Numbered from the stretch's first letter, positions 4,427 to 50,441 are shown. The stretch: 64,000 nt of DNA from an uncultured Acidimicrobiia bacterium (GCA_965366365.1 CBDUEV010000006.1:1429-65428); one strand, 5' to 3'. Numbers and translations: made by a program. Notes: generated from the letters alone by a model not told the origin.

Positions 4427-5388
<962 letters not shown>

Positions 5389-16395: not shown

Positions 16396-18147
16396 TCAGC
16401 GCGCCAGTGCGTCAGGCATCACGACGTGCTTGGCCCGTAGATACTCCCCCAAGGTCTTGGCTTGCGGGTCGAGCCGTGTCGAGGAGGCCACTCCTTCGCC
16501 AAGCAAACCCACGACCACGAAGTTGAGCGCCCACACGTTGGGGAACTCATGGCGGATCACCTCGAGGGTGGCGGTTTCCGGAAGTAGCTCCCGGAACCGC
16601 TCGACGGTGAGGAACTCCGCCAACCAGGTGTACCCCTCGGCATTCTCAGCCCAGACCCCCACGTTGGCGTTGCCTCCCTTATCTCCCGACCTTGCGCCGA
16701 AAGCGTCCCCGAGGGGGCGCATGGAAGCCGGCCCACCGACCGGGGCGGGAAGCGGATGCTCGGGCTCGCCGATTTCGAACGGATCGGCGACGGTCATGGG
16801 TACCGAGACGGCCTCGCCGTCGATCGTGACCCTCTGGTCGAGGCTTTCCGCAGCCACCGTGGTGGGCCAGTACACCGCATACGGAGAGGCTTCGCCCGGC
16901 GGACTCGTCAAGGCGAAACCCGGGTAATTGGCGAGCACCAGTTCGACGGCGGCAGACGAGAACGCCCGCCCGACCTTGGCGCGGTCGGGGTCCTTTACGG
17001 TGATGCGCAACTCGGTGATCGCTTCGACGTTGGACGCAGGGTCGGGGTGCTCTTTGCCGAGAAGCTGAACATCCGTCTCGGCGTATTGCTCTCTGCCGCC
17101 GGTCGCCAACCACAGGGCCTTCTCGGCGGCGGCGGCCTTGGACTCGGTGGCCAGGCCGGGCACCAACAGACCCATCGAGTTGCGGAAACCACCCAGGTAG
17201 TTGAGCGCCACCTTGGTGGTCGAAGGGGGTGCCTCGCCGCGCACCCCGGACACGAGCACCCGATCGTCACCCTCGTCGGTCAGGGAAATGGTGTCGAAAC
17301 GAGCGGTGACGTCGGGGTTGAGGTAGTGACGGTCCCCGATCTCATAGAGCAGTTGGGCGGTCACCGTTCCCGTCGAGACCAGTCCTCCGGTGCCGCGATG
17401 TTTGGTGATGACGCTCGATCCATCGGATCGGATCTCGGCGATCGGGAAGCCAAGACGTTCGAGTCCCGGCACCTCCTCGAAGAAGGCGTAGTTTCCCCCA
17501 CAGCACTGGGTTCCACACTCGATGATGTGACCGGCCACCAGCGCCCCGGCGAGGGCGTCCCAATCCCGGCGGCCCCACCCGTGGTGCCAGATGGCCGGAC
17601 CCATCACGACGGCCGCGTCGGTGACACGACCCGTCACGACGATGTCGGCGCCGCGGGTCAATCCCTCGACGATTCCCCATGATCCGAGATAGGCGTTGGC
17701 GGTGACCGGCTGGACCGACCGATCAGCGAGCGTTTCCCCGGTGTCGAGATGGGTGAGGGGGTTGCCCTGGCGTTGATACTCGTCGAGCCGGTCGAGGATG
17801 TCGTCGCCGTCGACGACGGCGATCGCCGGCTCGAGACCGAGGCGCTGTGCGATGGCGGCCAGCTGCGTGGCCAGCCCGTGCGGGTTGAGGCCCCCGGCGT
17901 TGGTCACGACCTTGATCCCCCGCTCCAGGCACGTGCCCATCACGTCTTCCATCTGGCGGAGAAACGTGGTGGCGTACCCACTCCCGGGTTCCTTGGTCCG
18001 GTTCCTCCACAGGATTGCCATGGTCAGCTCAGCGAGATAGTCCCCGGTGAGCACATCGATCGGTCCGTCTTCGATCATCTCCCGGGCAGCCGTCACCCGA
18101 TCGCCGTAGAACCCGGAGCAGTTGGCGATCCGGATCACATCTCCCAT
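16396..18147 (-). CDS. acyclic terpene utilisation AtuA-like protein (DUF1446 fused to DUF4387-like C-terminus)
   Basis: MGDVIRIANCSGFYGDRVTAAREMIEDGPIDVLTGDYLAELTMAIL is the typical AtuA N-terminus. The 188-codon upstream extension in the track is read-through antisense to nothing conserved. Confidence 0.7.
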   Translation of the reverse strand: MGDVIRIANCSGFYGDRVTAAREMIEDGPIDVLTGDYLAELTMAILWRNRTKEPGSGYATTFLRQMEDVMGTCLERGIKVVTNAGGLNPHGLATQLAAIAQRLGLEPAIAVVDGDDILDRLDEYQRQGNPLTHLDTGETLADRSVQPVTANAYLGSWGIVEGLTRGADIVVTGRVTDAAVVMGPAIWHHGWGRRDWDALAGALVAGHIIECGTQCCGGNYAFFEEVPGLERLGFPIAEIRSDGSSVITKHRGTGGLVSTGTVTAQLLYEIGDRHYLNPDVTARFDTISLTDEGDDRVLVSGVRGEAPPSTTKVALNYLGGFRNSMGLLVPGLATESKAAAAEKALWLATGGREQYAETDVQLLGKEHPDPASNVEAITELRITVKDPDRAKVGRAFSSAAVELVLANYPGFALTSPPGEASPYAVYWPTTVAAESLDQRVTIDGEAVSVPMTVADPFEIGEPEHPLPAPVGGPASMRPLGDAFGARSGDKGGNANVGVWAENAEGYTWLAEFLTVERFRELLPETATLEVIRHEFPNVWALNFVVVGLLGEGVASSTRLDPQAKTLGEYLRAKHVVMPDALAR

Positions 18148-18207
18148 GGAGGCTCCCTTTGTCGGCCTGGCGACCAGGCTAGGGGTTGGATCGACCAGAA
18201 TGGGCGG

Positions 18208-18849
18208 ATGTCCAACGCAGAGTTTCTCGCCTCGCACACTTCGGAGATCACCCTCGACGACGGCAAGCGGGTGGTGGTTCGGCCGATCGGGCCCGACGAC
18301 CGGCAGCGACTCCGCGAAGGTTTGGCCAAGGCAAGCGCCCACAGCCGCTATTTGCGGTTTCTGCGTCCCGTCGAGGAACTCTCCGAACGGGAGGAGGGCT
18401 ATCTCGTCAACATCGACTATCGAGATCACTTCGCATGGGCGGCGCTCGCCGCCGACGAGCCCGGCCAGCCCGGGCTCGGGGTGGCCCGCTACGTCCGCCA
18501 GGAGGACGATCCCGACGCCGCCGAGGCCGCCCTCATCGTCATCGACGAGGCCCAAGGCATGGGAATCGGAACGCTGCTCATCCGACTGCTGGCCGAGAGT
18601 GCTCAGGCGAACGGGATCAAGCGCTTCACCGGGTACGTATCGGCGGAAAACCGCCCGGTGGTCGAGGCGCTGACCAACACCGGCGCCATTCTGGAGAGAG
18701 AAGACAGCCACTTCAAGCTGACCGTGGACCTCCCCTTTCCCGACGAGCTCTTCCGGGGAAGCATTCTTCGTGAGACGTTGAGGGCCATTGCGGCGGGCCA
18801 GGGCGCCCAGCCCGCAGCCAGCGGGTCCGCGACCGACTCGCCCGAGTGA
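18208..18849 (+). CDS. GNAT family N-acetyltransferase
   Basis: Acetyl-CoA motif A IDEAQGMGIGTLL; start at the internal ATG (MSNAEFLASH), divergent from the AtuA-like gene. Confidence 0.7.
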   Translation: MSNAEFLASHTSEITLDDGKRVVVRPIGPDDRQRLREGLAKASAHSRYLRFLRPVEELSEREEGYLVNIDYRDHFAWAALAADEPGQPGLGVARYVRQEDDPDAAEAALIVIDEAQGMGIGTLLIRLLAESAQANGIKRFTGYVSAENRPVVEALTNTGAILEREDSHFKLTVDLPFPDELFRGSILRETLRAIAAGQGAQPAASGSATDSPE

Positions 18850-22856: not shown

Positions 22857-23753
22857 ATGTTGAGAGCGCATACCTATTCGGTGGTCGCCCGCGACCCGGC
22901 CAGTGGCGATTTCGGGGTGGCCGTCCAATCACACTGGTTCAACGTCGGGAGAATCGTGCCCTGGGCCCGCGCAGGAATCGGCGCAGTCGCCACCCAATCC
23001 ATGGTCGAGGTGTCGTACGGGCCCAAGGGCTTGGCGTTGATGGAAGCGGGCAGCTCGGCCTCACATACCCTCTCCACGCTTCTCGCTGCTGACGAAGGGC
23101 GCGCCTTGCGACAGGTGGCGATGGTGGACGCCACCGGTGAGGTGGCGGTCCACACCGGTGAGAGCTGTATCGCCGAAGCGGGTCACCTGTCGGGAGACGG
23201 CTGGTCGGTGCAAGCCAACATCATGCGGTCCGACGTCGTGATTCCGGCGATGGCCGACGCAATGGGTGCCTCGACAGGCGATTTCGCCGATCGCCTCCTG
23301 GCCGCTCTGGTGGCCGCCGAGGCAACCGGCGGAGATCTGCGGGGCAGCCAATCGGCTTCGCTCCTCGTCGTCGCCGAAGGAACGGATGAGCCAAGGCTGG
23401 ATCTGCGGGTGGACGATCATCCCGACCCCGTTGCCGAGCTGTCGCGTCTGCTCCACGTCGCCAGGGCGTACGATCTCATGAACGAGGGCGACGAGGCCCT
23501 CGCCGCAGGCGATCTCGCCGGGGCCGGCCGCGCCTATTCGGCCGCCGCCAGAAGCTCGAAGAACCCGGAGATCCTGTTCTGGCAGGGCCTGGGACTCGTC
23601 GAGTCCGGCGAAAGTGCGGCGGGGATGAGGTCGCTTCGCTCGGCGGTGGAGGGCAATCCCGATCTCGGCGAACTGCTTCGGCGTCTGCCGGCAGCCGGGT
23701 TGATCGACCCCACCAAGGCGGCCGAACTGCAGGCCGCTCTGGGTCTGAGCTGA
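22857..23753 (+). CDS. DUF1028 family protein (putative Ntn-hydrolase) with C-terminal helical repeat
   Basis: N-terminus MLRAHTYSVVARDPASGDFGVAVQSHWFNVG matches the DUF1028 consensus; the C-terminus is TPR-like. Confidence 0.65.
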   Translation: MLRAHTYSVVARDPASGDFGVAVQSHWFNVGRIVPWARAGIGAVATQSMVEVSYGPKGLALMEAGSSASHTLSTLLAADEGRALRQVAMVDATGEVAVHTGESCIAEAGHLSGDGWSVQANIMRSDVVIPAMADAMGASTGDFADRLLAALVAAEATGGDLRGSQSASLLVVAEGTDEPRLDLRVDDHPDPVAELSRLLHVARAYDLMNEGDEALAAGDLAGAGRAYSAAARSSKNPEILFWQGLGLVESGESAAGMRSLRSAVEGNPDLGELLRRLPAAGLIDPTKAAELQAALGLS

Positions 23754-24771: not shown

Positions 24772-26556
24772 TCAGAACGAAACGGTCGCCAGATTCGAAC
24801 AGATTGTCGTGCTCTGTTCGCAAACCTGGTACTCGAAGGTTCCGCTCGTGGCGTCGATCCGGTCCGAGTGGGAGCCGTCATTGCGAGTGGTGGAGACGAG
24901 TTGGCTGTCCCGGTAGACGTCGACCCTCGCCCCCGAGGCACCCGTCCACGTCAGGTCTGCCCTGACCCGATTCCGCAGAGCCGTTCCCGCGACGCTCAGG
25001 GTGATGGCCGGGCCGTCGCCGACGGTCACCGAGACGGTGTCCGTGCTGGTATTCCCACCAGAGTCGGTCACGGACGCCGAGATCACGTGGGTGCCGTCGC
25101 TCAAGGTCGCCGAGAAGCTCCCCCCGGAGCCGATGGCCCCGTCGAGATCGGACGTCCACGACAGGTCGGCCGTCAGGTCTCCGTCCTCGGGGTCGGAGGC
25201 CGTACCGGTGAACGAGACCGACGCCCCGGAGGGGAAGGTGGACCCATCGTCCGGCGCAGAGATGGAGAGGCTGGGATCGAGGTCGGAGCCGCCCCCCGTG
25301 GCAATCAGGGTGGGGATGAAGCCACCGGCATCCAGGAGACGCTCCTTGACGCCGTCGCCGGAGTTGTCGGTCCAGTCCAGATTCCCGGCGTTCACGACGT
25401 CGTCGTAGAGCTGGAACACGTCGGAGGAATCATTCGGATTGTCGGCGCTGGCGAGCAGCGCCAGGGCCCCCGCCACGTGGGGCGAAGCCATCGAGGTACC
25501 GCTGATCGTTCCCACCGATCCGAGCTGGACCGGGTAGGTGGAGAGGATGCAGGTGCCGGGAGCGGCGATGCCAACCACGGAGCCGTAGTTCGAGTAATCG
25601 GCCAGGGTGTCGTCAGCTCCGGTCCAGCAGTTCGACGAACCGGCTCCGCCTGGCAGACCGTCGAAGTCGGTGAGGGCGCTCACCGTGAGGGTGTTGTCGA
25701 AGGAGGCCGGGCTGTAAAACCCCGCATCCGAGGAGTCGTTGCCTGCCGCCACGGCAAAGGCCACTCCCGCTTCCACGGCGCCCTGGATCGCGTCGTACTC
25801 CGCCTGGTCGAAGCCGAAGCCACCCAGGCTCATGTTGGCCACCTCGATCGTGTCGGCATTGGCGGCTACCCAATCGATGCCGGCCACGATCCCGGCCGTC
25901 GTCCCGAAGCCTCGCCGGTTGAGGACTTTGACGGCCCAGATTCGGGCACCGGGAGCAACTCCAACCACGTAGGCGTCGTTGTCGATGGCTCCGATGGTGC
26001 CGGCCACGTGCGTTCCGTGATAGTGGTCGTCATCGCCTCCTGTGGAGCATGTCCCGCGCAAGCAGCTGACGCCGCCCGCCACGTTGAGGTCAGGGTGGTC
26101 GAGGTCGACTCCGGTGTCGATCACAGCCACGTCCACATCGACCCGAAAATCGTCCAAGCCGTCGATATCGATATTGGAGTTGGTGTCGGCGAAGATCCGT
26201 CTGATTCCTGTCGGCTCGTCCTGCGCCGAGATGCTGTGCACCCGGTCCTCCTGGACGTACGCCACACCCGGCTGGCGGGCGAGTGCGGCGGCCTGCGTGG
26301 CTGACAAGGCCATCGAGAATCCGCGCAGGGCGTGCTGGTAGACGAAGCCGACTTCACCGTCGAAGCTCTCTGAGGCGTCGGCGGCAACGGCTGCCACCGA
26401 CTGCGCCCCGGCCAACGCAGCTACTCCCGAACCGTCGTCGAGTACCACGATATAGGTCTGTTTCTGAGAGTCGGCGGCGGCCCCGGCCGCGGTGACTCCC
26501 GTCAGAACCAGGGCAAGGGTCAACAATCCGAAGGTTGCTCTACCAATCAACACCAC
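24772..26556 (-). CDS. secreted S8 family serine peptidase (subtilisin-like) with C-terminal Ig-like domains
   Basis: Signal peptide, catalytic triad DTGVDLDHPDL / HGTHVAGTIGA / GTSMASPHVAGALALL, and a C-terminal beta-rich repeat region. Confidence 0.85.
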   Translation of the reverse strand: MVLIGRATFGLLTLALVLTGVTAAGAAADSQKQTYIVVLDDGSGVAALAGAQSVAAVAADASESFDGEVGFVYQHALRGFSMALSATQAAALARQPGVAYVQEDRVHSISAQDEPTGIRRIFADTNSNIDIDGLDDFRVDVDVAVIDTGVDLDHPDLNVAGGVSCLRGTCSTGGDDDHYHGTHVAGTIGAIDNDAYVVGVAPGARIWAVKVLNRRGFGTTAGIVAGIDWVAANADTIEVANMSLGGFGFDQAEYDAIQGAVEAGVAFAVAAGNDSSDAGFYSPASFDNTLTVSALTDFDGLPGGAGSSNCWTGADDTLADYSNYGSVVGIAAPGTCILSTYPVQLGSVGTISGTSMASPHVAGALALLASADNPNDSSDVFQLYDDVVNAGNLDWTDNSGDGVKERLLDAGGFIPTLIATGGGSDLDPSLSISAPDDGSTFPSGASVSFTGTASDPEDGDLTADLSWTSDLDGAIGSGGSFSATLSDGTHVISASVTDSGGNTSTDTVSVTVGDGPAITLSVAGTALRNRVRADLTWTGASGARVDVYRDSQLVSTTRNDGSHSDRIDATSGTFEYQVCEQSTTICSNLATVSF

Positions 26557-26562
26557 TCCAAG

Positions 26563-26572
26563 TGACTAGTCA
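26563..26572. promoter_or_regulatory. 10-bp perfect palindrome TGACTAGTCA in an AT-rich island immediately upstream of the S8 peptidase start
   Basis: Within agtgactagtcagaaagg, a local AT-rich patch between the argH stop and the peptidase start. Confidence 0.35.
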
Positions 26573-26622
26573 GAAAGGGGAGTGTAGTGAGGGGTCTCCG
26601 AGGCGCAAGCGGTTCTCGGGCG

Positions 26623-27993
26623 TCAGCTGCCCGGCTCCTCGAGGGAGGCGGCGATGGAGTCCCTCATCCATCGCACCTGCCGGCTGACCTCCGCGAAGGA
26701 CCCACCCCCGGGCGTGATTCGCCGGTGGACCGACTCGCGTGGATCGAGTAGGGCGAGATCCTCGATCTCGAAACCACTGCTGACGAGATCCTCCCCAGTG
26801 GCGTCTGCGAAGGTCTTTCCTTCTTCGGCCAACGTCTTGATCAGACCACCGACCGTTTCGTGCGCCACCCGAAAGGCCACACCTCGCTTCACCAGCGCCT
26901 CGGCCAGGTCCAGGGCCGTCACCTCGGGACGCGGAGCGGGAGGATGAAAGGAAGCGGACGCCATCATTGCGCCGAGGGTGTCGAGCGACCCCGCCAAGAC
27001 GTCGTCCGCATGGAACACCAGTCGCTTGTCCTCCTGGAGGTCGCGGTTGTACGTCAGGGGCAAGCCCTTCTGCAGGGTCAGTACGGCCGCCACGTCACCG
27101 ATCACGCCGGCCGCTCGACCGCGGACCAGTTCGGCGACATCCGGATTCTTCTTCTGCGGCATGGCCGACGAGCCGGTCGTGAACGAATCCGGAAAGGACA
27201 CCCAGCCGAACTCGGACGTAGCCCAGAGGATCACCTCTTCGGCGAGTCGCGAAAGGTGCGTCATTGCCTGAGCGCACACGAACACGTACTCGGCGACAAA
27301 ATCTCGCGAGGCCACGGCGTCCATCGAGTTCACGAAATGCCATCGCCACCCGAGCAGATGCGCCGTGGCGGCCGGGTCGAGAGGCAAGCTGCTTCCTCCC
27401 GAGGCTCCGGCCCCGAGTGGCGACACCTCGATCCGGCCGATCGCCGACCCCATCCGCTCCGCGTCGCGTCGCAGCATCTCCCCGTAGGCGAGCAGGTGGT
27501 GAGCCAGCGGCACGGCCTGGGCCTGTTGAAGATGGGTGTACGACGGAACCACGGTGTCGCCCACCTCCTCTGCCTTGTCCACCAGATGTGCGGCCATCGT
27601 GGCCAGGCGGCGGACCTGCTCTCGACCCGATCGGGACAGGTAGAGCCGAAGGTCCAAGGCGACCTGATCGTTGCGCGACCGGCCCGTGTGGAGTTTCTTG
27701 GCAGGGTCACCGATCATCTCCCCCAATCGGCGCTCGGTAGCCGTATGGACGTCCTCGTCGGTCTCCAAGAAGACGAACGTGCCGCGTCGGGCCTCTTCGT
27801 AGATCTGTCCGAGCCCCTCGAGGAGCAACCCCGCCTCGCTCTCGGCGAGCAGCTCCTGCTCGGCGAGCATCCCGACGTGCGCCATCGACCCGCGGACGTC
27901 GTCCTCGAGAAGACGCCGGTCCGTGGTGTCCACCGTATACGCCCAGAGCAGCTCGTCGGGGTCGCTGTCGTACCCCCCGGACCAGAGCGTCAC
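26623..27993 (-). CDS. argH: argininosuccinate lyase
   Basis: Fumarate-lyase signature [12 protein letters not shown]. Confidence 0.9.
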
Positions 27994-29195
27994 TCCCCTT
28001 CTCCGAGGCGAGCTTCCGCGGTACGCCGGAGACGAAGGGCGTTGAGTCGAATGAAGCCCGCCGCGTCAGCCTGGTCGTAGACGTCGTCGGCCTCGAACGT
28101 CACCGTGGCGTGGTCGTACAGCGCGTAGTCGGATCGGCGCCCCTCGACGTAGACGCCACCTTTGTAGAGCCTGAGTCGCGCTTCGCCGCTCACCCGGTCC
28201 TGGGTGGTATCCATGAAGGCCTGCAGGGCCTCTCGCTCCGGAGAGAACCAGAAACCGTTGTAGACCATCTCGGCGTACTTCGGGATGAGCTCGTCGCGTA
28301 GGTGGGCCACTTCGCGATCGAGCGTCAGTGACTCCACGGCCCGGTGAGCGTGGTGGAGTATGGTTCCGCCCGGCGTCTCGTAGACACCCCGGCTCTTCAT
28401 CCCCACGAAGCGGTTCTCGACGATATCGATCCGCCCCACTCCGTGACGTCCCCCGAGGGTGTTCAGCTTGGCCAGGAGAGCGGCGGGGGCGAGCTCTTCC
28501 CCGTTCACCGCGATCGGATCGCCCTTCTCGTAGTGAATCGTGACGATCTCCGCCAGGTCAGGCGCCGTCTCGGGATCCGCCGTCATCTTGAACATGCCGT
28601 CGGGAGGGCTCACCCACGGGTCCTCCAACACCCCGCCTTCGTAGCTGATATGCAGCAGGTTGGCGTCCATCGAGTACGGCTTCTCCTTCGTCACCGGTAC
28701 CGGTATGCCTCGCTGCTCGGCGTACGCCACACAATCAGCCCTGCCTTTGAGGTCCCACTCCCGCCACGGTGCGATCACCTGAATATCGGGTTTCAGCGCA
28801 TAGGCGGACACCTCGAAACGGACTTGGTCGTTCCCCTTGCCGGTGGCCCCATGGGCGATGGCGTCGGCACCGGTCCTCTCGGCCGCCCTCACCAAACCCT
28901 TGGCGATGACTGGCCGCGCCAACGAGGTGCCCAAGAGGTAATAGCCCTCATAGACGGCGTTCGCTCGGAGGGCCGGGAAGACGTAGTCGGTGACGAACTC
29001 CTCGGTCAGATCCTCGGCGATCGCCTCCACCGCTCCGGTGGCGATGGCCTTCACCTTGGCCTCCTCGACTTCCTCCCCTTGCCCGACGTCGGCCGTGTAC
29101 GCCACGACTTCGACGTCATACTCCTCCATGAGCCAGGTGAGAATGACTGACGTGTCCAGCCCACCCGAGTAGGCGAGTACCACCTTCTTCATCAT
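27990..29195 (-). CDS. argG: argininosuccinate synthase
   Basis: [11 protein letters not shown]-loop, length ~400 aa; ATGA overlap with argH. Confidence 0.92.
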
Positions 29196-29650
29196 CCTGC
29201 TCCGATCCTTTCCAGGGTTTCTGCCACGGTTCGGCCACCGACGCCCTGTGCGGCGATGACCATGAGCGTGTTGTCTCCGGCGATCGTGCCCAAGACGCCT
29301 TCCAGGGGCGCCGAGTCGATAGCCGCCGCCACCACGTGGGCCGCGCCATCGCCGGTCTTGATCACGACGAGGTTGGCGGTGGGCACGATGGACTCGGCAA
29401 ACTCGGTCAGCGCCCGGGCCAGGCCGGAGAACGCTTCCCCGGAGGGAAGGACCTCGTCCGGAAGCACGTAGCGCGATCGCCCGTCGATGCGCGACTTGAT
29501 CGCTCCCAGGGCATGGAGGTCCCGCGACACGGTTGCCTGGGTGACGTCATAGTGCGCGGCGCGCAACAGGTCCACCAGGTCGCCTTGGCTGGACACCTGT
29601 TGCTCCTCGAGGAGCCTCCGAACCAGCCGTCGCCGTGCCGCGGTATTCAT
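29192..29650 (-). CDS. argR: arginine repressor
   Basis: Winged-helix N-terminus ([25 protein letters not shown]) and C-terminal oligomerisation/arginine-binding GTIAGDNT; overlaps the argG start. Confidence 0.85.
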
Positions 29651-29654
29651 AGCG

Positions 29655-29688
29655 CATGACTATACGGATAGCCGCATAATCATGCAAG
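29655..29688 (-). promoter_or_regulatory. AT-rich promoter/operator candidate directly upstream of argR (TATAGT -10-like hexamer plus ARG-box-like half sites)
   Basis: Top strand CATGACTATACGGATAGCCGCATAATCATGCAAG in the 75-bp argB-argR gap, 5 bp from the argR ATG; contains the near-palindrome GCATAATCATGC. Confidence 0.45.
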
Positions 29689-29725
29689 ATGAGGTTCCGG
29701 GGTCGGTCGGTGGACGAGAGACCGT

Positions 29726-30619
29726 TCAGCCGGTGACCATCGTGCCGATCCCCTCCGGAGTGAAGATCTCCAGAAGGAGAGAATGCTGGACACGACCGTC
29801 GAGGATGTGCACCTGCCCGACACCGGAGCGTAAGGCTCGCACACACGACTCCAGCTTGGGGAGCATTCCGGCCGAGACCGATCCGGACCGAACCATCTCG
29901 TCGAGGTCGCCGGCCGTCACCCGGGCAATGAGACTGTCCTGGTCTCCCAGGTCCCGGTACAAGCCCTCCACGTCGGTCAGATAGACGAGCTTGGCGGCAC
30001 CGAGGGCGGTCGCCAGCGCCTCGGCGGCCGTATCGGCGTTGACGTTGTACACCTCGCCGTCCAGGCCCCTGGCAAGAGGGGCGACCACGGGCACGATCCC
30101 CCTTTCCAGCATCCCATGGATCAGGTTGGGGTCCGTTCTCTCGATCTCGCCGACGAAGCCGAGTCGCTCATCCTTGGCGGTGGCGGTGAAGAGGCCGCCA
30201 TCGATGCCCGTGACCCCGGCGGCGGTGGCGCCGTGGCCGGACAACAGGCGAACGATGTCGGGGTTGATCTCCCCGGCCAGCACCGACTGCACGACCCGGA
30301 TCGTCTCTGCGTCGGTGACTCTCAGGCCTTCGACCCAGCTCGGCTCGACGCCGGCTTGACCCATGGCGCGGGTGATGTGGGGACCGCCTCCGTGGACGAC
30401 CACCGGGTGAATACCGACCAAGTTGAGCAGCGCGACATCGCCGGCAAAGGTGTTGCGCAGCGCTTCGTCGGTCATGGCCGAACCGCCGTATTTGACGACC
30501 ACCACCTTGTCCTTGAACGAGCGGATGTAGGGCATCGCCTCCATGAGGATCTTCGCTTTGCCCATCGTTGAGGCAATGCGGCCCTTCCTGGCCGAGGGAC
30601 TGGTGTGGCCGGTGCTCAT
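29726..30619 (-). CDS. argB: acetylglutamate kinase
   Basis: VVVVKYGGSAM, VVVHGGGPHI; the true start may be an internal Met. Confidence 0.88.
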   Translation of the reverse strand: MSTGHTSPSARKGRIASTMGKAKILMEAMPYIRSFKDKVVVVKYGGSAMTDEALRNTFAGDVALLNLVGIHPVVVHGGGPHITRAMGQAGVEPSWVEGLRVTDAETIRVVQSVLAGEINPDIVRLLSGHGATAAGVTGIDGGLFTATAKDERLGFVGEIERTDPNLIHGMLERGIVPVVAPLARGLDGEVYNVNADTAAEALATALGAAKLVYLTDVEGLYRDLGDQDSLIARVTAGDLDEMVRSGSVSAGMLPKLESCVRALRSGVGQVHILDGRVQHSLLLEIFTPEGIGTMVTG

Positions 30620-31767
30620 GATGGTTCTCCGTTGAAGATGACGTACGAGGGGGTGAGGTCGGTGGTCACAACCGTGCCGTGTCCGGGGCCATCACCCACC
30701 GAGATGTGGACATCCAGTGGGCCCTCTTTCATGAGGGCCCGCAACGCGACGCCGTCGAAGTGGACTGCCGACCCGGCTGAGGCAACCGGCACTCCCTGGT
30801 AGCTCACCGCCACCGCGGCAGGGTCGATGCTCACACCGGCCACGCCGAGTGCCCCGTAGATCCTCCCCCAGTTGGGGTCGCCTCCGTAGAACGAAGCGCG
30901 CACCAACACCGAATCGGCCACCGCCATGCCCAGACGCCGTGCATCGGCATCGGATTCCGCGCCGCTGATGGTCAGCGTCACGACTCGCGAGGCGCCCTCG
31001 GCGTCTTCCGCCATGGCAGAGGCGAGGCGGCGGCAGACGGCTAGGACCGCACCGGCGAATTCCTCACGAGCCGGTTCGATCTCGCTGGCTCCGGAAGCCA
31101 TGATCACCACCGTGTCGTTGGTCGATTGACATCCGTCGATGTTGAGACTGTTGAAGGTGGGGGCGACGGCGTCGGCGAGCACCTCGCTGAGCGTCTCAGC
31201 ATCGACTCGCGCGTCGGTGGTCAGTACCGCCAGCATGGTGGCCATGTCCGGCCGGATCATGCCTGCGCCTTTGGCCATGCCGCCGATCACCCATCCATCG
31301 CCGGCATCGGTCGCCTGTTTCGGTACGGAGTCAGTGGTCAAGATCGCTTCGGCGGCCGCATGCCCGTCGGAGCCGAGTGCGGCAACCAGCTCCGGAATTC
31401 GGCTCGGCAGGCGGTCCGGCAGCTGTGGGCCGATCGGGCCCGTCGAGCAAACCGCCACCTCCGAGACCGGCCGACCGATGGCGCCGGCCACGGCCTCGGC
31501 CATCGCCCGCGCAGCGGCCGCTCCCTGCTCTCCTGTCCCGGCATTGGCGCAGCCGGAGTTCAACACCACCGCAGCCAGTCTCCCCCCTGCGACGTGGGCC
31601 CTGCTGAGCGATACGGGGGCCGCTTCGGTGGCCGACCGGGTGAAAACCGCCGCAGCCGGGACCGGCCCGGACTCCGACACCACCAGGGCGAGATCGAGCT
31701 GTCCGTCGGACTTGATGCCCGCCGCCATGCCACCAGCCCGGAATCCCCGGGCGGCGGTGACGCTCAC
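30616..31767 (-). CDS. argJ: bifunctional glutamate N-acetyltransferase / amino-acid acetyltransferase
   Basis: ArgJ N-terminus VTAARGFRAGGMAAGIK and autocatalytic-cleavage region ATML. GTG start chosen at the GTGA overlap with the argC stop; an alternative GTG lies at 31776. Confidence 0.8.
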   Translation of the reverse strand: MSVTAARGFRAGGMAAGIKSDGQLDLALVVSESGPVPAAAVFTRSATEAAPVSLSRAHVAGGRLAAVVLNSGCANAGTGEQGAAAARAMAEAVAGAIGRPVSEVAVCSTGPIGPQLPDRLPSRIPELVAALGSDGHAAAEAILTTDSVPKQATDAGDGWVIGGMAKGAGMIRPDMATMLAVLTTDARVDAETLSEVLADAVAPTFNSLNIDGCQSTNDTVVIMASGASEIEPAREEFAGAVLAVCRRLASAMAEDAEGASRVVTLTISGAESDADARRLGMAVADSVLVRASFYGGDPNWGRIYGALGVAGVSIDPAAVAVSYQGVPVASAGSAVHFDGVALRALMKEGPLDVHISVGDGPGHGTVVTTDLTPSYVIFNGEPS

Positions 31768-32798
31768 GGCATCCACCCGGCGACGGGAAGGCCAGAGCCT
31801 TCGGGAAGCTCCATCATCAGGTTGGCTGCCTGGATGGCCTGGCCGGCCGCACCCTTGATCAGGTTGTCGATCGCCGAGAGCACGACCGCCGTGCCGGTCG
31901 AGGGATCGAGAAACGCCGACACCAGCGCTCGATTGGAGCCCACCACCCACCGGGTTTGCGGAGCATCTTCCACTATCTCGACAAAGGGCGCCTCTGCGTA
32001 TGCGTCGCGCAGCACGGCGGTGAGGTCGGCCTGGGTGACGCCGGGCTTGGCCGCCGCCGTGGACGTGGCGGCGATCCCCCTGAGCATCGGCACCAGATGT
32101 GGCGTGAAGGTGACGGGAACGCGCTCGATGCCCGCATACCTCTCCAACACCATTTCGATCTCCGGCCGGTGGCGATGCTTCGTGACACCGTAGGCCCGCA
32201 CGCCCTCGTCCACGGCGCCGAAAAGGAGGTCTTCGCGCACTGCCCGCCCCGCCCCGGACGTCCCCGACACGGCGTTGACGACGATTCCGTCGGCTTCCAC
32301 CGCTCCGGCTGCCAGGAGCGGCGCCAGGCCAAGGACGGCGGCGGTCGGGTAACACCCCGGCGAGGCGACGCGGGCCGCCCCGGTCAGCTCCGACGCGAAC
32401 AACTCCGGTTGTCCATAGACCCAGGAGGAGAGTTCGCCGGGCAGCGGGTGATCCGACCCGTAGGCACTCAGGTAGCGCTCAGGGGTGTCCATCCTGAAGT
32501 CGCTCCCCAGGTCCACCACCTTGGCTCCTCCGTCGGCGAGGGCATGGGCGAGTTGCGCCGAGGCGCCGTGCGGCAGCGCCAGGAAGGCGAGGTCGCATGC
32601 GCCGGCGACGGCAACATCGTGCAACTCGAGGAGACGGTCCCCACCACCGAGGTGGGGATGCACCTCGCCGAGTCGTCGGCCGGCTTGGGAGTGGGCTCCC
32701 AGCATCCGAATCTCGAAGTGAGGGTGTTCGTCGAGCAAGCGGACCAGCTCGCCACCGGCGTAGCCGGATGCACCGAGGATGGCGACAGAAGCTTTCAT
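31764..32798 (-). CDS. argC: N-acetyl-gamma-glutamyl-phosphate reductase
   Basis: ILGASGYAGGELVRLL, catalytic Cys in VASPGCYPTA. Confidence 0.9.
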   Translation of the reverse strand: MKASVAILGASGYAGGELVRLLDEHPHFEIRMLGAHSQAGRRLGEVHPHLGGGDRLLELHDVAVAGACDLAFLALPHGASAQLAHALADGGAKVVDLGSDFRMDTPERYLSAYGSDHPLPGELSSWVYGQPELFASELTGAARVASPGCYPTAAVLGLAPLLAAGAVEADGIVVNAVSGTSGAGRAVREDLLFGAVDEGVRAYGVTKHRHRPEIEMVLERYAGIERVPVTFTPHLVPMLRGIAATSTAAAKPGVTQADLTAVLRDAYAEAPFVEIVEDAPQTRWVVGSNRALVSAFLDPSTGTAVVLSAIDNLIKGAAGQAIQAANLMMELPEGSGLPVAGWMP

Positions 32799-32802
32799 TC
32801 GA

Positions 32803-32827
32803 GCATTATACGAGTATGCGAATAGCG
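32803..32827 (-). promoter_or_regulatory. leaderless-type promoter (TATAAT 7 nt before ATG) with ARG-box-like element upstream of argC
   Basis: Coding strand GCTATTCGCATACTCGTATAATGCTCGA-ATG; shares the motif YTATACGRRTAKSCG with the argR upstream element. Confidence 0.5.
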
Positions 32828-32852
32828 TGCCAAACCGACCTCATCGCCACGA

Positions 32853-34418
32853 TCAGGAACCCGCCAGCGGGGCGAGGCCCAGCTCGGGGATGGCCGGAAT
32901 CGGGTTTTCGTAGAGCCACGCGTCGAAGAAGTCCTGCAGTGATCGACCCGACACCTCTTCGGCCAGCGCGACGAACTCCTCGGTGCTGGTGTTGCCGTAG
33001 GCAAAGCGTTTGGCGTATGTCTGGAGGATCTCGAAGAAGGCCTCGTCCCCCACCTCCAACCGAAGGGCGTGCAGCGTCAATCCGCCTCGCTTGTAGACGG
33101 ACGCGTTGAAGAGATCGTCGCGATGCGGGGCTCCGGGCGGCGGGAAGGCCGCCTCGGCCAGCTCGGCAGCCGCCGCATCGGTGTCGACCTGATCCGTGAA
33201 GGCCTGGCCGCTCATCACCGCGTACCAGCGGGCGATCTCCGCGTCGCGAGCTGCAGGGCCGGAGGTGTGCTCCTGCCAGAGCCACTCCGCGTATGTGGCG
33301 AAGCCCTCGTTGAGCCAGATGTCCTTCCACTCGGTCAGGCTCACGCTGTTCCCGAACCACTGATGGGCCAGTTCGTGAACCACCACGGCGTCTCCCAGGC
33401 TCAGCACCTGGCTCCCGAAGGTGGACAGCGTTTGGGTCTCGAGGGCTGCCCCCAGATCCTCGGTTTCGAGCACCAGCGCGCCGTAGGAGTCGAAGGGGTA
33501 CGGCCCGAAGATCTCGGACAGGTACCCGAGCATCTCCGATTGCCGAGCAAAGATCTCGGCGACTCCGGTGAGGTCGTCGTCGAAGTAGTTGCGGATGACG
33601 ACCCCGGCGGGACCCACCTCGTCGAAGCGCTCGAAGTCGCCCACAGCCATCGTGAGGAGGTACGAAGCGAGCGGCTGATTCGCCTCCCACACGTAGGTGA
33701 TGAGGTCTTCGTCCTCCAACTGTTGGGCGAGAAGCCCGCTGGAGGCGACCACGAAGGGCCGCGGGACGGTCACCGACACTCCGTAGGTGGCTTTGTCCAA
33801 GGGGTGGTCGTTGGCCGGGAACCAGGAGGAGGCGCCGGCTGGTTCGCTGAGGGCGAAATAACCATCGACCGACGGCAAAAAGCCGGTCTGGAACGGAGCC
33901 GCCTCCGTGAAGAACGGCACGGGCTTGCCGCCGTAGGCGATCACCATCTCAAACGTCTCGCCCGCCTCGACCGGCTCAGGGGGATCGATCCGCAGCTCTG
34001 GCTCGACATGGTCGAAGGCCGCAGCAACACCGTCGACCATGACGGTCTTGACGGTCATCGTGGAGAGGTCCACCGACCAACTGTCGAGGTCGTCCGTGGC
34101 GACGGCCTGGAGGGTGGCCACTCCGTCGATCCGCGGGCGGGCGGGGTCGATCCGGAGTTCGAGTTCGACGTGTTGCACGTCATAGCCGGCGTTGCCGAGT
34201 TCGGGGTAGTAGTCGTCGCCCAGCCCGTCGGCGGCGTCGATCCCGCCTGCCACGATGGGCGCAGTCGTGGCGGGAATCGCGCGACTGCTCGGGACGGTGG
34301 TCGAGGTGGTCGACGCGGCGCTGCTAGTGCCCGAACAGGCGGTCACCCCGAGGGCGAGAGCGAGCACGAGCGCCGGCAGACGCCGCCGAGCGCCTTTCTG
34401 GCGCAGCTCAGTCTTCAT
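32853..34418 (-). CDS. secreted M1 family zinc aminopeptidase
   Basis: HEXXH-x18-E: VVHELAHQWFGNSVSLTEWKDIWLNEGFATY; signal peptide plus lipobox-like VTACSG. Confidence 0.8.
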   Translation of the reverse strand: MKTELRQKGARRRLPALVLALALGVTACSGTSSAASTTSTTVPSSRAIPATTAPIVAGGIDAADGLGDDYYPELGNAGYDVQHVELELRIDPARPRIDGVATLQAVATDDLDSWSVDLSTMTVKTVMVDGVAAAFDHVEPELRIDPPEPVEAGETFEMVIAYGGKPVPFFTEAAPFQTGFLPSVDGYFALSEPAGASSWFPANDHPLDKATYGVSVTVPRPFVVASSGLLAQQLEDEDLITYVWEANQPLASYLLTMAVGDFERFDEVGPAGVVIRNYFDDDLTGVAEIFARQSEMLGYLSEIFGPYPFDSYGALVLETEDLGAALETQTLSTFGSQVLSLGDAVVVHELAHQWFGNSVSLTEWKDIWLNEGFATYAEWLWQEHTSGPAARDAEIARWYAVMSGQAFTDQVDTDAAAAELAEAAFPPPGAPHRDDLFNASVYKRGGLTLHALRLEVGDEAFFEILQTYAKRFAYGNTSTEEFVALAEEVSGRSLQDFFDAWLYENPIPAIPELGLAPLAGS

Positions 34419-35790
34419 CGTGGTCCTTCATCCACGCCCGAACGAGTTCGAACGCCTCCTCTGTGGAGTAGGGGCCTTCGTCGATGCGGTGTTCCAGCAA
34501 CATCTTCATGATCTCTCCCACCATGGGTCCGGGCGACAGACCGAATTCGGACATGACGTCGTTGCCGTCGATGGGAGGCCGAAGTTTGGCGATCTCCTCC
34601 TGCTGGGACAGCACCTCGATGCGATCCTCCAATTCGTCGATGCGGCGCTGGATGGCGTCGGCCCGTTTGGCGTTCCCCGTGGTGACGTCGCATCGAACCA
34701 ACTCGTTCAGGTCGGCGAGGAGGGGGCCGGCGTCGCGGGCATAGCGACGCACCGCAGAGTCGGTCCAGCCCATCTTGAACGTATGCGGGCGCAAATGCAG
34801 GAAGACGAGCCGGCTGACGTCATCCACCATCTCCTTGGGGTACCGCAGCGCCTTGAGTCGTTCACGGGCCATCCGGGCGCCAACCACTTCGTGGTGGTGG
34901 AATGACACCCCTCCCTTGCCGAAATGGCGGGTGGCCGGCTTTCCGATGTCATGGAGGAGGGCGGCCAAACGCAGCCGCAACGTCGGCTGGGTCTTCTCCA
35001 CAACGGCCAGCGTGTGCTCCCACACGTCCTTGTGGCGGTGGAGCGGATCGCGCTGTTCGCGCAGGTCGACCAGCTCCGGCAGGAACGAGGCGGCGAGCCC
35101 GCTGTCCACGATCCCGCGTAGGCCGCGGGCGGGGTGTTCGGTGACGAGGAGCTTGGACAACTCGTCTCGAGTCCGTTCGGCCGAGACGATTTCCAGACGA
35201 TCGGCCATGTCTCGGACCGCCTGCACGGCGGCGGGATCGGGTTCGAAGTCGAGGGCCGAGACGAACCGATACAGTCGCATCATCCGCAACGGGTCGTCCG
35301 AGAAGGCGACCTCGGGGGCCAGGGGGGTTCGGAGCTCGCGTCGACCGAGGTCCTCCAGGCCGCCGAACGGGTCGACGAGTTCGAGCTTGGGGAGCGGCAG
35401 CGCCATGGCGTTGATCGTGAAATCGCGGCGCGAAAGGTCGGTTTCGATGTCGTCCGAGAAGCTCACCTCAGGCTTCCGGCTGTGGTCGCGGTAGATCTCG
35501 TTTCGGAACGTCGTGATCTCGTAGAGGTGACCGTCTGCCCTCATGCCGATGGTCCCGAACCGCTCCCCCATCGTGAACACCGCGTCGGCGATCGGCGCGA
35601 TCACCCGCTTGATGTCGGCGGGATGGGCGTCGGTCGAGAAGTCGAGGTCGTCGGCGGGACGACCCAGCAGGGCGTCACGCACCGATCCACCAACCAGAAA
35701 GAGCTGGAATCCGGCGTCGGCGAACCGCTCGGCGAGACGAGCCGGCGGGGCGTCGGCCGCGACCAACCAGGCGAGACGTTCGGGAACCAT
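34408..35790 (-). CDS. cca: CCA tRNA nucleotidyltransferase / poly(A) polymerase with HD domain
   Basis: FLVGGSVRDALLG..DLDF pol-beta NTase motif, HD domain LLHDIGK; start placed at MVPERLAW (Met25 of the track ORF). Confidence 0.75.
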   Translation of the reverse strand: MVPERLAWLVAADAPPARLAERFADAGFQLFLVGGSVRDALLGRPADDLDFSTDAHPADIKRVIAPIADAVFTMGERFGTIGMRADGHLYEITTFRNEIYRDHSRKPEVSFSDDIETDLSRRDFTINAMALPLPKLELVDPFGGLEDLGRRELRTPLAPEVAFSDDPLRMMRLYRFVSALDFEPDPAAVQAVRDMADRLEIVSAERTRDELSKLLVTEHPARGLRGIVDSGLAASFLPELVDLREQRDPLHRHKDVWEHTLAVVEKTQPTLRLRLAALLHDIGKPATRHFGKGGVSFHHHEVVGARMARERLKALRYPKEMVDDVSRLVFLHLRPHTFKMGWTDSAVRRYARDAGPLLADLNELVRCDVTTGNAKRADAIQRRIDELEDRIEVLSQQEEIAKLRPPIDGNDVMSEFGLSPGPMVGEIMKMLLEHRIDEGPYSTEEAFELVRAWMKDHDED

Positions 35791-49180: not shown

Positions 49181-49455
49181 CAGCCGACGGCTCCGTCGAG
49201 TTCCGTCACCGGAGCGTCACCGGTCGGGACCGGGTCGTACCCACCTTCATGCCAGGGATGGCACCGTGCCAAGCGCCGGCTTCCCATGAATACGCCCCTG
49301 ATCACACCGAATCTCCCGATCGCTTCGTACGTGTATCGGGAGCACGTGGGTTCGTATCGGCAGTTCTTACCCAACGACGGCGATACCAGATTCTGGTAGG
49401 CCTTGATCAAGCCGCGGGCCAGTCGTGCCGGCGGAGCAACTCTCGTTTCAGGCAT
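49180..49455 (-). CDS. yidD: membrane protein insertion efficiency factor YidD
   Basis: [31 protein letters not shown] motif. Start set at Met16 of the track ORF to avoid a 53-nt overlap with rnpA. Confidence 0.75.
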
Positions 49456-49819
49456 TTCCAGCTTCTTCCATATCGGTGTTTCCGCCCAGGCCCTGTTCAA
49501 CCCACCTCAGAAGGGCGGGAAAGGGTGCGGTGACCACACTCTTCGACGCAATCATTACGTAATCCTTGCCTCGAGGCAGGCCCACTTCTCGAACGGCCTC
49601 ACGCAGTCTTCGCTTGGCCCGGTTGCGAGCCACCGCATTGCCCACCTTCTTGGTGGTGACGATTCCCACGCGGCCGGTCTCGGAATCTGCAGGTGCCTCG
49701 ATCACCAAGAGGCCCCCTGACCTACGACGGGCTCCCATCTTGAAAACCCGCTGAAAGTCGCTGTTGGCACGAAGAAATCCGACGTCGCTACGCGGCGAGG
49801 CGCTGCCGACCTTTGTCAC
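49448..49819 (-). CDS. rnpA: ribonuclease P protein component
   Basis: Conserved [13 protein letters not shown]-terminal motif and basic RNR-like region [10 protein letters not shown]. The ATG start overlaps the rpmH 3' end by ~32 nt; no alternative start codon precedes the conserved motif. Confidence 0.8.
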
Positions 49820-49922
49820 GACGGCGCTTGAGGGTGGCCCGACCGGCTCGGGTCCGCATTTTCGAACGAAAGCCGTGCTTACGCTTGCGACGGCGCGTGT
49901 TTGGTTGATAGGTCCGCTTCAT
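49788..49922 (-). CDS. rpmH: 50S ribosomal protein L34
   Basis: [44 protein letters not shown], 44 aa, near-universal sequence. Confidence 0.9.
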
Positions 49923-50416: not shown

Positions 50417-50441
50417 CAAGAAAGAGGTCTAGGAGGGCCCT

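What the first reader, a model, noticed from the sequence alone, without database searches (positions are those of the whole stretch)
26623..32852. Reduced arginine operon argC-J-B-R-G-H lacking argD and argF, with matching AT-rich promoter/operator elements abutting the argC and argR start codons
The six genes are contiguous and mostly overlap-coupled on the minus strand. The acetylornithine aminotransferase (argD) and ornithine carbamoyltransferase (argF) that sit between argB and argR in Mycobacterium, Corynebacterium and Streptomyces are absent. A 75-bp non-coding gap stands in their place. That gap (29655-29688) and the region just upstream of argC (32803-32827) share the motif YTATACGRRTAKSCG. 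On the coding strand, argC has TATAAT ending 7 nt before the ATG. argR has a TATAGT-like hexamer ending 4 nt before its ATG on the coding strand (roughly position -9 to -4). This implies leaderless transcripts for both. The argR-proximal element also reads CATGA..N..CATGCAAG, resembling paired ARG boxes (Bacillus/actinobacterial type CATGAATAAAAATKCAAG). Together this suggests an internal ArgR-controlled promoter driving argR-argG-argH separately from argCJB. It also suggests that argD and argF are located and possibly regulated elsewhere.
Basis: partly seen in the sequence, partly recalled or inferred. Interest (0 to 1): 0.5.

Follow-up and report, generated by a model that had tools for sequence, protein, structure and literature searches.

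The report
Arginine operon with internal ArgR promoter
This is an ordinary arginine-biosynthesis gene cluster from an uncultured soil actinobacterium (class Acidimicrobiia) in which the repressor gene argR has its own promoter built into two repressor-binding sites; it is a clean example of a known kind of regulation, not a new one.

Summary
The gene order is real. argC-argJ-argB, a 75-bp gap, then argR-argG-argH lie on the minus strand at 26623-32798. There is no argD or argF anywhere in the 64-kb window. Independent assemblies and about 10 relatives show the same argB-argR adjacency, so it is a clade trait of soil Acidimicrobiia and not a misassembly.

The gap holds a textbook ArgR operator. 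A matrix built only from 37 gel-shift-supported Streptomyces coelicolor ARG boxes puts its two best hits in the window on two contiguous 20-nt boxes at 29650-29689, which abut the argR ATG. The boxes contain a promoter: TTGCAT, 17 nt, TATAGT, 8 nt, ATG. That layout is kept without indels in 17 loci, including genomes where argRGH stands alone.

argC has the only near-consensus sigma-70 promoter in the window, 6 nt from its ATG, but only a weak ARG-like box.

This is a known kind of system and of low interest. The location of argD/argF stays unknown.

The parts
31764..32798 (-). [quoted passage not shown]
   Evidence: TIGR01850, 382 bits against a cutoff of 233.6. The N-terminus MKASVAILGASGYAG aligns from model position 2.
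30616..31767 (-). argJ, bifunctional ornithine acetyltransferase/N-acetylglutamate synthase (383 aa). Its GTG start overlaps the argC stop (GTGA).
   Evidence: NF003802, 406.6 bits against a cutoff of 351. The junction was read.
29726..30619 (-). argB, acetylglutamate kinase (297 aa)
   Evidence: TIGR00761, 247.7 bits against a cutoff of 151.3. A 100% identical protein lies on an independent ENA contig.
29651..29725 (-). 75-bp argB-argR intergenic gap. Its promoter-distal 36 bp are not conserved; its promoter-proximal 39 bp are operator and promoter.
   Evidence: No terminator-like site and no Rfam match.
29670..29689 (-). ARG box 1 (TCTTGCATGATTATGCGGCT). It contains the -35 hexamer TTGCAT (29687-29682).
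   Evidence: 16.0 bits with the S. coelicolor EMSA-derived matrix, rank 1 of 63,981 positions. Conserved in 17 loci.
29650..29669 (-). ARG box 2 (ATCCGTATAGTCATGCGCTA). It contains the -10 hexamer TATAGT (29664-29659) and ends on the A of the argR ATG.
   Evidence: 12.6 bits, rank 2. The 13 nt CGTATAGTCATGC equal the reverse complement of S. coelicolor argC box AB.SCO1580_B1.
29192..29650 (-). argR, arginine repressor (152 aa). Carries GTIAGDNT in place of the canonical GTIAGDDT.
   Evidence: TIGR01529, 129.7 bits, just under the 130.45 cutoff. The best solved relative is M. tuberculosis ArgR 3ERE, E=2.9e-24. Alignment.
27990..29195 (-). argG, argininosuccinate synthase (401 aa). Its ATG overlaps the argR stop (ATGA).
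   Evidence: NF001770, 625.7 bits.
26623..27993 (-). argH, argininosuccinate lyase (456 aa). Its GTG overlaps the argG stop.
   Evidence: TIGR00838, 456.2 bits.
32805..32833 (-). argC promoter: TTGGCA (32833-32828), 17 nt, TATAAT (32810-32805), then 6 nt to the ATG at 32798.
   Evidence: It is the only promoter-like site in 26000-35000. It is also the only >=11/12 consensus match in the whole window on both strands, against 0.06 expected.
32804..32823 (-). Candidate single ARG-like box at argC (ATTCGCATACTCGTATAATG), overlapping the spacer and the -10 hexamer.
   Evidence: 6.3 bits with the S. coelicolor matrix, rank 53, about 8e-4 per position. 9.85 bits and rank 8 with a matrix built from relatives' argR boxes. 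It lies inside a 21-nt block (32805-32825) that is invariant in W, L028, L001 and L029 while the flanks diverge.

Best explanation
The region is the arginine-biosynthesis operon of a soil Acidimicrobiia bacterium. It consists of two transcription modules placed head to tail.

Module 1, argC-argJ-argB, is driven by a near-consensus housekeeping promoter. Its -10 hexamer sits 6 nt from the argC ATG, so the mRNA is probably leaderless.

Module 2, argR-argG-argH, is driven by an internal promoter in the 75-bp argB-argR gap. The -35 hexamer (TTGCAT) of that promoter lies inside one 20-nt ARG box. The -10 hexamer (TATAGT) lies inside a second, directly adjacent ARG box that ends at the argR ATG.

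When arginine is abundant, hexameric ArgR with bound arginine would occupy both boxes and shut out RNA polymerase. This would repress its own synthesis and that of the last two pathway enzymes (negative autoregulation). It would possibly also block read-through from the argC promoter. argC probably carries one weaker ArgR site over its -10 region.

argD and argF are encoded elsewhere in the genome.

Shown here: gene identities, the absence of argD and argF, the quality of the operator sequence, and conservation of the promoter/operator layout.
Inferred: ArgR binding, arginine dependence, the transcription start sites, and leaderless translation.
For: Operator at argR:
- The independent S. coelicolor ARG-box matrix (37 EMSA-supported boxes, PMC5839063 Table 1) puts its two best window hits on the contiguous boxes 29670-29689 and 29650-29669. 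The tandem score is 28.6 bits against 11.4 for the runner-up.
- Contiguous 20-nt boxes are the typical arrangement at Streptomyces arg genes. There the argC boxes lie 18 and 38 nt from the start codon, which is the same geometry.
- In each of 17 loci the best tandem score of the whole 9-64 kb locus lies 38-40 nt upstream of the argR ATG (about 37 nt in L010, recomputed from the corrected start). Scores are 20-33 bits against 3-15 bits for the second best.
- All 17 keep TTGCAT-like -35, exactly 17 nt, (C/T)ATAnT, then 6-9 nt to the ATG, although their ArgR proteins are only about 50% identical.
- The cassette precedes argR where argCJB is absent upstream (L003-L011, L014, L026) or separated by opposite-strand genes (L002). 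It must therefore be a promoter.
- Relatives whose argR overlaps argB (L027, L032, L013, L015, L018) lack the cassette. In L015, L027 and L032 the best boxes lie upstream of argC instead; L013 and L018 do not include the argC upstream region.

Promoter and start codon:
- The ArgR recognition helix TQATVSRDL and the N-terminus align to M. tuberculosis ArgR. This fixes the start codon and justifies transferring the matrix.
- The argC promoter is the only 11/12 consensus match in 64 kb.
- TANNNT about 12 nt upstream of a start codon marks leaderless genes in Actinobacteria (PMC3160421; PMC3898074).

Assembly:
- An independent short-read contig, L033, is 99.9% identical over 4321 bp across the junction.
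Against: - There are no transcription start, binding or expression data for this organism or any close relative.
- The argR -35 hexamer matches TTGACA at only 3 of 6 positions and fails the generic promoter scan.
- The argR -10 hexamer is 8 nt from the ATG, so a 1-2 nt leader is as likely as a strictly leaderless start.
- The argC box is weak (6.3 bits, rank 53). The box position that is strong in relatives (L029 12.3 bits, L032 12.9 bits, L015 13.2 bits) has decayed to 1.0 bit in the window. ArgR control of argCJB in this genome is therefore uncertain.
- ArgR here has GDNT instead of the GDDT motif reported as essential for arginine binding. Arginine responsiveness may differ.
- argD and argF could not be located, so the regulon picture is incomplete.
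Confidence: 0.8

Rival explanations
1. The tandem boxes in the gap are not part of a promoter. They act only as an ArgR roadblock or attenuator for transcripts that start at argC, so the six genes form one transcription unit.
For: - The argR -35 hexamer is only 3/6 to consensus, and the generic scan does not call a promoter there.
- No terminator separates argB from argR, so read-through from the strong argC promoter is expected.
- Relatives L027, L032 and L015 run argB directly into argR as a single operon.
Against: - The same cassette, with an invariant 17-nt spacing of TTGCAT and (C/T)ATAnT and 6-9 nt to the ATG, precedes argR in 12 or more loci that have no argCJB upstream. In L002 it follows opposite-strand genes. 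No upstream transcript is available to block there.
- A roadblock function can coexist with the promoter, but it cannot be the only function.
Confidence: 0.08
2. The conserved element works at the RNA level. The two boxes form a 15-bp hairpin that includes the argR start codon region on read-through mRNA. It would act as a processing, stability or translation-blocking structure rather than (or as well as) a protein-binding DNA site.
For: - The fold of 29640-29740 gives a 15-pair stem. The whole 101-nt fold has a free energy of -38.7 kcal/mol and a z-score of -4.5 against shuffles. An outer stem pairs with the AUG.
- There is no Shine-Dalgarno sequence in the gap, so argR on read-through mRNA would be poorly translated.
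Against: - The pairing is what two adjacent palindromic ARG boxes give for free. Across 16 operators 80.8% of cells pair, against 78.4% after shuffling partners.
- Only 3 pairs change on both sides, and those changes split along clade lines. The central positions do not pair in most relatives.
- There is no U-tract and no Rfam family.
Confidence: 0.05
3. Only argR-argG-argH is under direct ArgR control in this genome. The argC element is simply a strong constitutive promoter, and its resemblance to the argR element is the shared -10 region plus chance.
For: - The argC/argR upstream similarity (12/16) is not exceptional.
- The argC box scores 6.3 bits at rank 53. The register that is strong in relatives scores 1.0 bit here.
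- There is no tandem partner.
Against: - The 21-nt block CTATTCGCATACTCGTATAAT, which covers the promoter spacer, is invariant in four genomes whose flanking intergenic DNA diverges. Promoter spacers are normally free to vary.
- The clade-derived matrix ranks the box 8th in the window.
- Relatives L015, L029 and L032 have clear ARG boxes at the same promoter.
- Single-box ArgR sites are functional in S. coelicolor.
Confidence: 0.3
4. The missing argD and argF and the short gap are an assembly or binning artefact, such as a collapsed or chimeric join.
For: The window comes from an uncultured-organism assembly. Some related long-read assemblies (L028, L029) show frameshift-fragmented genes.
Against: - An independent short-read contig (L033, ENA ERZ25043450) is 99.9% identical over 4321 bp spanning argJ to argH and has the same gap.
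- L001, L028, L029, L030 (Logan), L031, L027, L032, L013, L015 and L018 all show argB next to argR.
Confidence: 0.01

Closest known systems
Streptomyces coelicolor / S. clavuligerus arginine regulon (argCJBDR, with separate argG, argH and arcB; ArgR and 20-nt ARG boxes)
   Same: - Operators are two contiguous 20-nt imperfect palindromes with a TGCAT-N4-ATGCA core.
- The boxes abut the start codon of the regulated gene: the argC boxes lie 18 and 38 nt from the start.
- An ARG box is reported upstream of argR inside the cluster, and arg genes are dispersed, each with its own boxes (PMC5839063).
- The matrix from those sites picks the window's argR operator as its top two hits. One box shares 13 of 13 nt with S. 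coelicolor argC box B1.
   Different: - Streptomyces keeps argD between argB and argR and has argG and argH unlinked.
- Here argD is gone, argG and argH follow argR, and the operator is fused base-for-base with a -35/-10 pair that is conserved across a class-level clade.
- ArgR here has GDNT instead of GDDT.
Mycobacterium tuberculosis / Corynebacterium glutamicum argCJBDFRGH cluster
   Same: - The order argC-J-B...R-G-H is colinear.
- ArgR is closest in sequence to M. tuberculosis ArgR (3ERE, E=2.9e-24).
- C. glutamicum also splits the cluster into two operons, both under ArgR (PMC8484045).
   Different: - argD and argF are absent between argB and argR.
- The operon break lies upstream of argR (argCJB | argRGH), not downstream of it (argCJBDFR | argGH).
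Escherichia coli argR autoregulation
   Same: The repressor gene's own promoter is overlapped by two tandem ARG boxes, which gives negative autoregulation (own knowledge; the general ARG-box description is).
   Different: - E. coli boxes are 18 bp separated by 3 bp, with a TGAAT/ATTCA core.
- E. coli argR is monocistronic, has a leader and is unlinked to biosynthetic genes.
Leaderless actinobacterial genes (TANNNT about 12 nt upstream of the start codon)
   Same: - The first T of TATAAT is 12 nt upstream of the argC ATG. The first T of TATAGT is 14 nt upstream of the argR ATG.
- There is no Shine-Dalgarno sequence.
- About 19% of actinobacterial genes are predicted to be of this type (PMC3160421).
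   Different: Nothing unusual. The only addition is that the -10 hexamer doubles as half of a repressor site.

Membership tests
ArgR/AhrC-controlled operator (ARG boxes) | A cognate ArgR-family repressor (N-terminal winged-helix domain plus C-terminal oligomerisation/arginine-binding domain) is encoded. | tested here: met
   TIGR01529, 129.7 bits, marginally below the 130.45 cutoff, covering residues 6-148. Full-length match to M. tuberculosis ArgR 3ERE. Recognition helix TQATVSRDL is conserved.
ArgR/AhrC-controlled operator (ARG boxes) | An 18-20 bp imperfect palindrome matches the experimentally derived ARG-box consensus. | tested here: met
   argR boxes score 16.0 and 12.6 bits with the S. 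coelicolor EMSA-derived matrix, ranks 1 and 2 of 63,981. The argC box is only 6.3 bits at rank 53, which is inconclusive for that site.
ArgR/AhrC-controlled operator (ARG boxes) | Two boxes lie in tandem, 20-21 bp centre to centre. | tested here: met
   The boxes are contiguous with 20-bp spacing. This spacing is invariant in 17 loci.
ArgR/AhrC-controlled operator (ARG boxes) | The operator overlaps the promoter of an arginine-metabolism gene. | tested here: met
   The -35 hexamer lies inside box 1 and the -10 hexamer inside box 2, directly upstream of argR-argG-argH. The promoter is inferred from sequence and conservation, not mapped.
ArgR/AhrC-controlled operator (ARG boxes) | ArgR binds and represses in an arginine-dependent way. 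| not testable with these tools
   Needs EMSA or footprinting and expression data.
ArgR/AhrC-controlled operator (ARG boxes) | The conserved GTIAGDDT arginine-binding/oligomerisation motif is present in the repressor. | tested here: not met
   The window ArgR has GTIAGDNT, as do L028 and L032. L001-L023, L026, L027, L029, L031 and M. tuberculosis have GDDT. The motif is described as essential for arginine binding, citing Yim 2011.
Leaderless mRNA (actinobacterial type) | A TANNNT -10 hexamer starts about 12 nt upstream of the start codon. | tested here: met
   12 nt for argC and 14 nt for argR. There are 6-9 nt between the hexamer and the ATG in 17 argR loci, and 6-10 nt in 8 argC loci. The criterion is from PMC3160421.
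Leaderless mRNA (actinobacterial type) | There is no Shine-Dalgarno sequence between the promoter and the start codon. | tested here: met
   Direct reading gives GCTCGA before the argC ATG and CATGCGCT before the argR ATG.
Leaderless mRNA (actinobacterial type) | The transcription start site coincides with the start codon. | not testable with these tools
   Needs dRNA-seq or 5' RACE.
Mycobacterium/Corynebacterium-type argCJBDFRGH cluster | argD and argF lie between argB and argR. | tested here: not met
   tblastn with Acidimicrobiia ArgD and ArgF finds no hit in the window or in the 25 W-clade loci then fetched. No OTCace or Aminotran_3 Pfam family was called within +/-10 kb in L027-L032.
Intrinsic terminator or structured RNA element in the gap | A GC-rich hairpin followed by a U-tract, a curated RNA family match, or covariation beyond column composition. 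| tested here: not met
   No terminator-like site in the gap. No Rfam hit at E<=1. Hairpin pairing is 80.8% against 78.4% after shuffling.

The most novel reading that the evidence does not exclude
argR-argG-argH, together with its 40-bp operator-in-promoter cassette, is a self-contained autoregulated module. During Acidimicrobiia evolution it has been moved relative to argCJB: free-standing, separated by an insertion, abutting, or fused by gene overlap with loss of the cassette. In the window's lineage, control has shifted onto this internal promoter. The argC operator has decayed, and ArgR has acquired a GDD-to-GDN change, with PPG-to-GDG nearby, that alters arginine sensing. On read-through mRNA the two boxes form a 15-bp hairpin that hides the SD-less argR start codon. 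ArgR would then be made only from the leaderless internal transcript.
Probability: 0.12. Interest if true: 0.4.

Novelty: new member of a known kind. Interest (0 to 1): 0.22.

Why it matters
It gives a well-supported, ready-to-test ArgR operator and promoter for Acidimicrobiia, a class that is essentially uncultured and for which no regulatory sites have been characterised. It shows that the Streptomyces ARG-box model transfers across the phylum. It also documents that the arginine cluster of this clade is split into argCJB and argRGH modules, with argD and argF elsewhere. This is useful for annotation, regulon reconstruction and metabolic modelling of soil and sponge-associated Acidimicrobiia. 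It does not change what is known about arginine regulation.

Tried and rejected
1. Locating argF in relatives' genomes. I searched the 5.8-billion-protein set with L016 ArgF and looked for hits whose longest contig matched the known chromosomes or contigs of the W-clade. None of the best 120 matched, so the location of argD and argF remains unknown.

2. It occurs twice against 0 expected, but that test is circular. The unbiased pairwise test shows the similarity is unexceptional.

3. RNA-element reading of the gap. There is a strong hairpin, but it has no covariation beyond palindrome composition, no U-tract and no Rfam match.

4. Misassembly. Rejected by the independent contig L033 and many relatives.

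5. A second tandem operator elsewhere in the 64 kb, as a sign of further regulon members. None was found. The next-best tandem scores are 11.4-12.6 bits, inside genes.

6. An aminotransferase in the window as a possible argD substitute. ORF 61621-63015 is class I/II, not the class III ArgD type, and there is no tblastn match to ArgD.

Full report
WHAT IS THERE

The window has 65% GC and carries dnaA-dnaN-recF at 50.4-54.2 kb. Its closest relatives are uncultured Acidimicrobiia genomes assembled from metagenomes (MAGs).

NCBIfam equivalog models identify six consecutive minus-strand genes:
- argC 31764-32798
- argJ 30616-31767
- argB 29726-30619
- argR 29192-29650
- argG 27990-29195
- argH 26623-27993

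Four junctions are 4-nt start/stop overlaps. The only gap is 75 bp, between argB and argR (29651-29725). Upstream lie an M1 aminopeptidase gene and a CCA/poly(A) polymerase gene. Downstream lies an S8 protease gene.

ABSENCE OF argD AND argF

ArgD and ArgF from a related Acidimicrobiia locus that still has them (L016, identified) give no tblastn hit in the 64-kb window at E<=1e-3. They also give no hit in the loci of the window's clade. Other ORFs of suitable size have unrelated Pfam families.

This is not an assembly artefact. An independent short-read contig (L033) is 99.9% identical over 4321 bp across argJ to argH and has the same gap. argB is adjacent to argR in L001, L013, L015, L018 and L027-L032.

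The clade shows every variant of the junction:
- A short gap (W, L001, L028, L029).
- A gap of about 375 bp (L031).
- A 1.8-kb insertion of opposite-strand genes (L002).
- argB overlapping argR (L027, L032, L013, L015, L018).
- argR-argG-argH standing alone behind unrelated genes such as ahcY (L003-L012, L014, L026).

The sponge-associated Poriferisodalis group (L016-L022) keeps argB-argD-argF-argR.

THE argR ELEMENT

I built a symmetrised weight matrix from the 37 gel-shift-supported S. coelicolor ARG boxes in Table 1 of PMC5839063. This model owes nothing to the window.

Its two best hits among 63,981 positions are 29670-29689 (16.0 bits) and 29650-29669 (12.6 bits). These are two contiguous 20-nt boxes, and the second ends on the A of the argR ATG. 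The tandem score is 28.6 bits against 11.4 for the next best site. Box 2 shares 13 consecutive nucleotides with the reverse complement of the S. coelicolor argC box B1.

Contiguous 20-nt boxes that abut the start codon are the standard arrangement at Streptomyces arg genes. There the argC boxes lie 18 and 38 nt from the start.

Read on the coding strand, the boxes contain TTGCAT (29687-29682), a 17-nt spacer, TATAGT (29664-29659), then 8 nt to the ATG.

CONSERVATION

In each of 17 loci the best tandem score in the whole locus lies 38-40 nt upstream of the argR ATG (about 37 nt in L010, recomputed from the corrected start). Scores are 20-33 bits against 3-15 bits for the runner-up.

All 17 keep a TTGCAT-like hexamer, exactly 17 nt, (C/T)ATAnT, and 6-9 nt to the ATG. 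There is not one indel, although the ArgR proteins are only about 50% identical.

Twelve or more of these loci have no argCJB upstream, so the cassette must be a promoter there. The fixed short distance to the ATG and the lack of a Shine-Dalgarno sequence fit a leaderless or nearly leaderless transcript. That transcript type is common in Actinobacteria.

The ArgR N-terminus and recognition helix align with M. tuberculosis ArgR, which fixes the start codon. Relatives in which argR overlaps argB lack the cassette. In L015, L027 and L032 the best boxes lie upstream of argC instead; L013 and L018 do not include the argC upstream region.

THE argC ELEMENT

TTGGCA-17-TATAAT, with 6 nt to the ATG, is the only promoter-like site in 9 kb. 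It is also the only 11/12 consensus match in the whole window, against 0.06 expected. A strong leaderless promoter is well supported by sequence.

The operator claim is weaker:
- The best box (32804-32823) scores 6.3 bits at rank 53 with the Streptomyces matrix.
- It scores 9.85 bits at rank 8 with a matrix built from relatives' argR boxes.
- The register that carries strong boxes in L029, L032 and L015 (12-13 bits) scores only 1.0 bit here.

In its favour, the 21 nt CTATTCGCATACTCGTATAAT (32825-32805), which include the spacer, are invariant in four genomes whose flanking intergenic DNA diverges.

YTATACGRRTAKSCG is present at both sites. However, it aligns the argC box with the junction between the two argR boxes. 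An unbiased comparison shows that the pairwise similarity (12/16) is reached by 53 of 1485 pairs of upstream regions. The real shared feature is the CGTATART -10 region.

ALTERNATIVES

The two boxes can form a 15-bp hairpin that reaches the start codon. Across 16 operators, however, pairing is 80.8% against 78.4% after shuffling. It is therefore a by-product of adjacent palindromes.

There is no terminator in the gap. There is no Rfam family in the region or in the whole window, and there are no tRNAs in the window.

MECHANISM AND STANDING

Most likely, ArgR with bound arginine occupies both boxes and excludes RNA polymerase from the internal promoter. This would repress argR itself together with argG and argH, and it may also impede read-through from the argC promoter. 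argCJB is driven by a strong promoter with at most a weak ArgR site.

This matches known systems:
- E. coli argR autoregulation (own knowledge).
- ARG boxes upstream of argR inside the Streptomyces cluster.
- The two-operon organisation in Corynebacterium.

The differences are the gene order (no argD or argF; the operon break lies before argR) and a GDD-to-GDN change in ArgR.

I could not locate argD or argF. The finding is a correct, well-read but ordinary example: a new member of a known kind.

Noticed in passing
window 29192-29650 (-), residues about 124-131 of ArgR; also L028 and L032: ArgR has GTIAGDNT where L001-L023, L026, L027, L029, L031 and M. tuberculosis ArgR have GTIAGDDT. In W, L028 and L032 this co-occurs with KTGDGAAH instead of TPPGAAH. 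The same change in three separate assemblies argues against a sequencing error. The second Asp belongs to the motif reported as essential for arginine binding.
   Followed up: partly
window 29650-29689 (-): The two ARG boxes are inverted repeats of each other. As RNA they fold into a 15-bp stem, and an outer stem pairs with the argR AUG (z-score -4.5). The pairing is explained by the composition of the palindromes, not by covariation.
   Followed up: yes
window 22864-22883 (+ strand gene 22857-23753, DUF1028); L028 17736-17755: The third-best single ARG-box hit in the window (12.6 bits, CACCGAATAGGTATGCGCTC) lies in codons 3-9 of a DUF1028 gene. It is identical in L028. It is probably chance, because there is no tandem partner.
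   Followed up: no
window 61611-61630: An ARG-like box (9.6-12.2 bits) sits between the 3' end of a class I/II aminotransferase gene (61621-63015, -) and the start of a histidine kinase gene (59798-61582, -). It has no tandem partner and its significance is unknown.
   Followed up: no
window 49181-59153: This is the chromosomal origin neighbourhood. A 1.26-kb stretch without a called gene (49181-50441) is followed by dnaA (50442-51848), dnaN (52039-53127), recF (53124-54221) and two large ORFs whose sizes fit gyrB and gyrA. The arg operon lies about 18-24 kb from dnaA. The synteny with cca, the M1 peptidase gene and (in L032) parB is kept in relatives.
   Followed up: partly
L002 8187-9942; L031 10892-11226: The argB-argR junction is a hotspot for change in the clade. 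L002 carries a 1.8-kb insertion with an alpha/beta-hydrolase/LipJ-like gene and a small ORF on the opposite strand. L031 has about 335 bp of unassigned DNA before the operator.
   Followed up: partly
L016-L022 (Poriferisodalis group): These loci keep argB-argD-argF-argR but have no argG between argR and argH. Most have argC directly followed by argB, with no argJ match. Their best ARG boxes (TGAATAA..TTGCAAAT type) lie well upstream of argC.
   Followed up: no
L028 and L029 (ENA ERZ25039508 contigs): Several genes (the M1 peptidase gene, argC, argG, argH) are split into fragments in the gene calls. This is typical of uncorrected long-read frameshifts, so gene calls from these assemblies should not be read as pseudogenes.
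   Followed up: no
window 4423-5388 and 7987-10773 (+); 16396-18711 (-): There is a MoxR-type AAA+ ATPase and a large VWA-domain protein with a GATase1-like region (BatA/MoxR-type cluster), and an AtuA-family protein. They are unrelated to the finding. No RNA family or tRNA was detected anywhere in the 64 kb.
   Followed up: no
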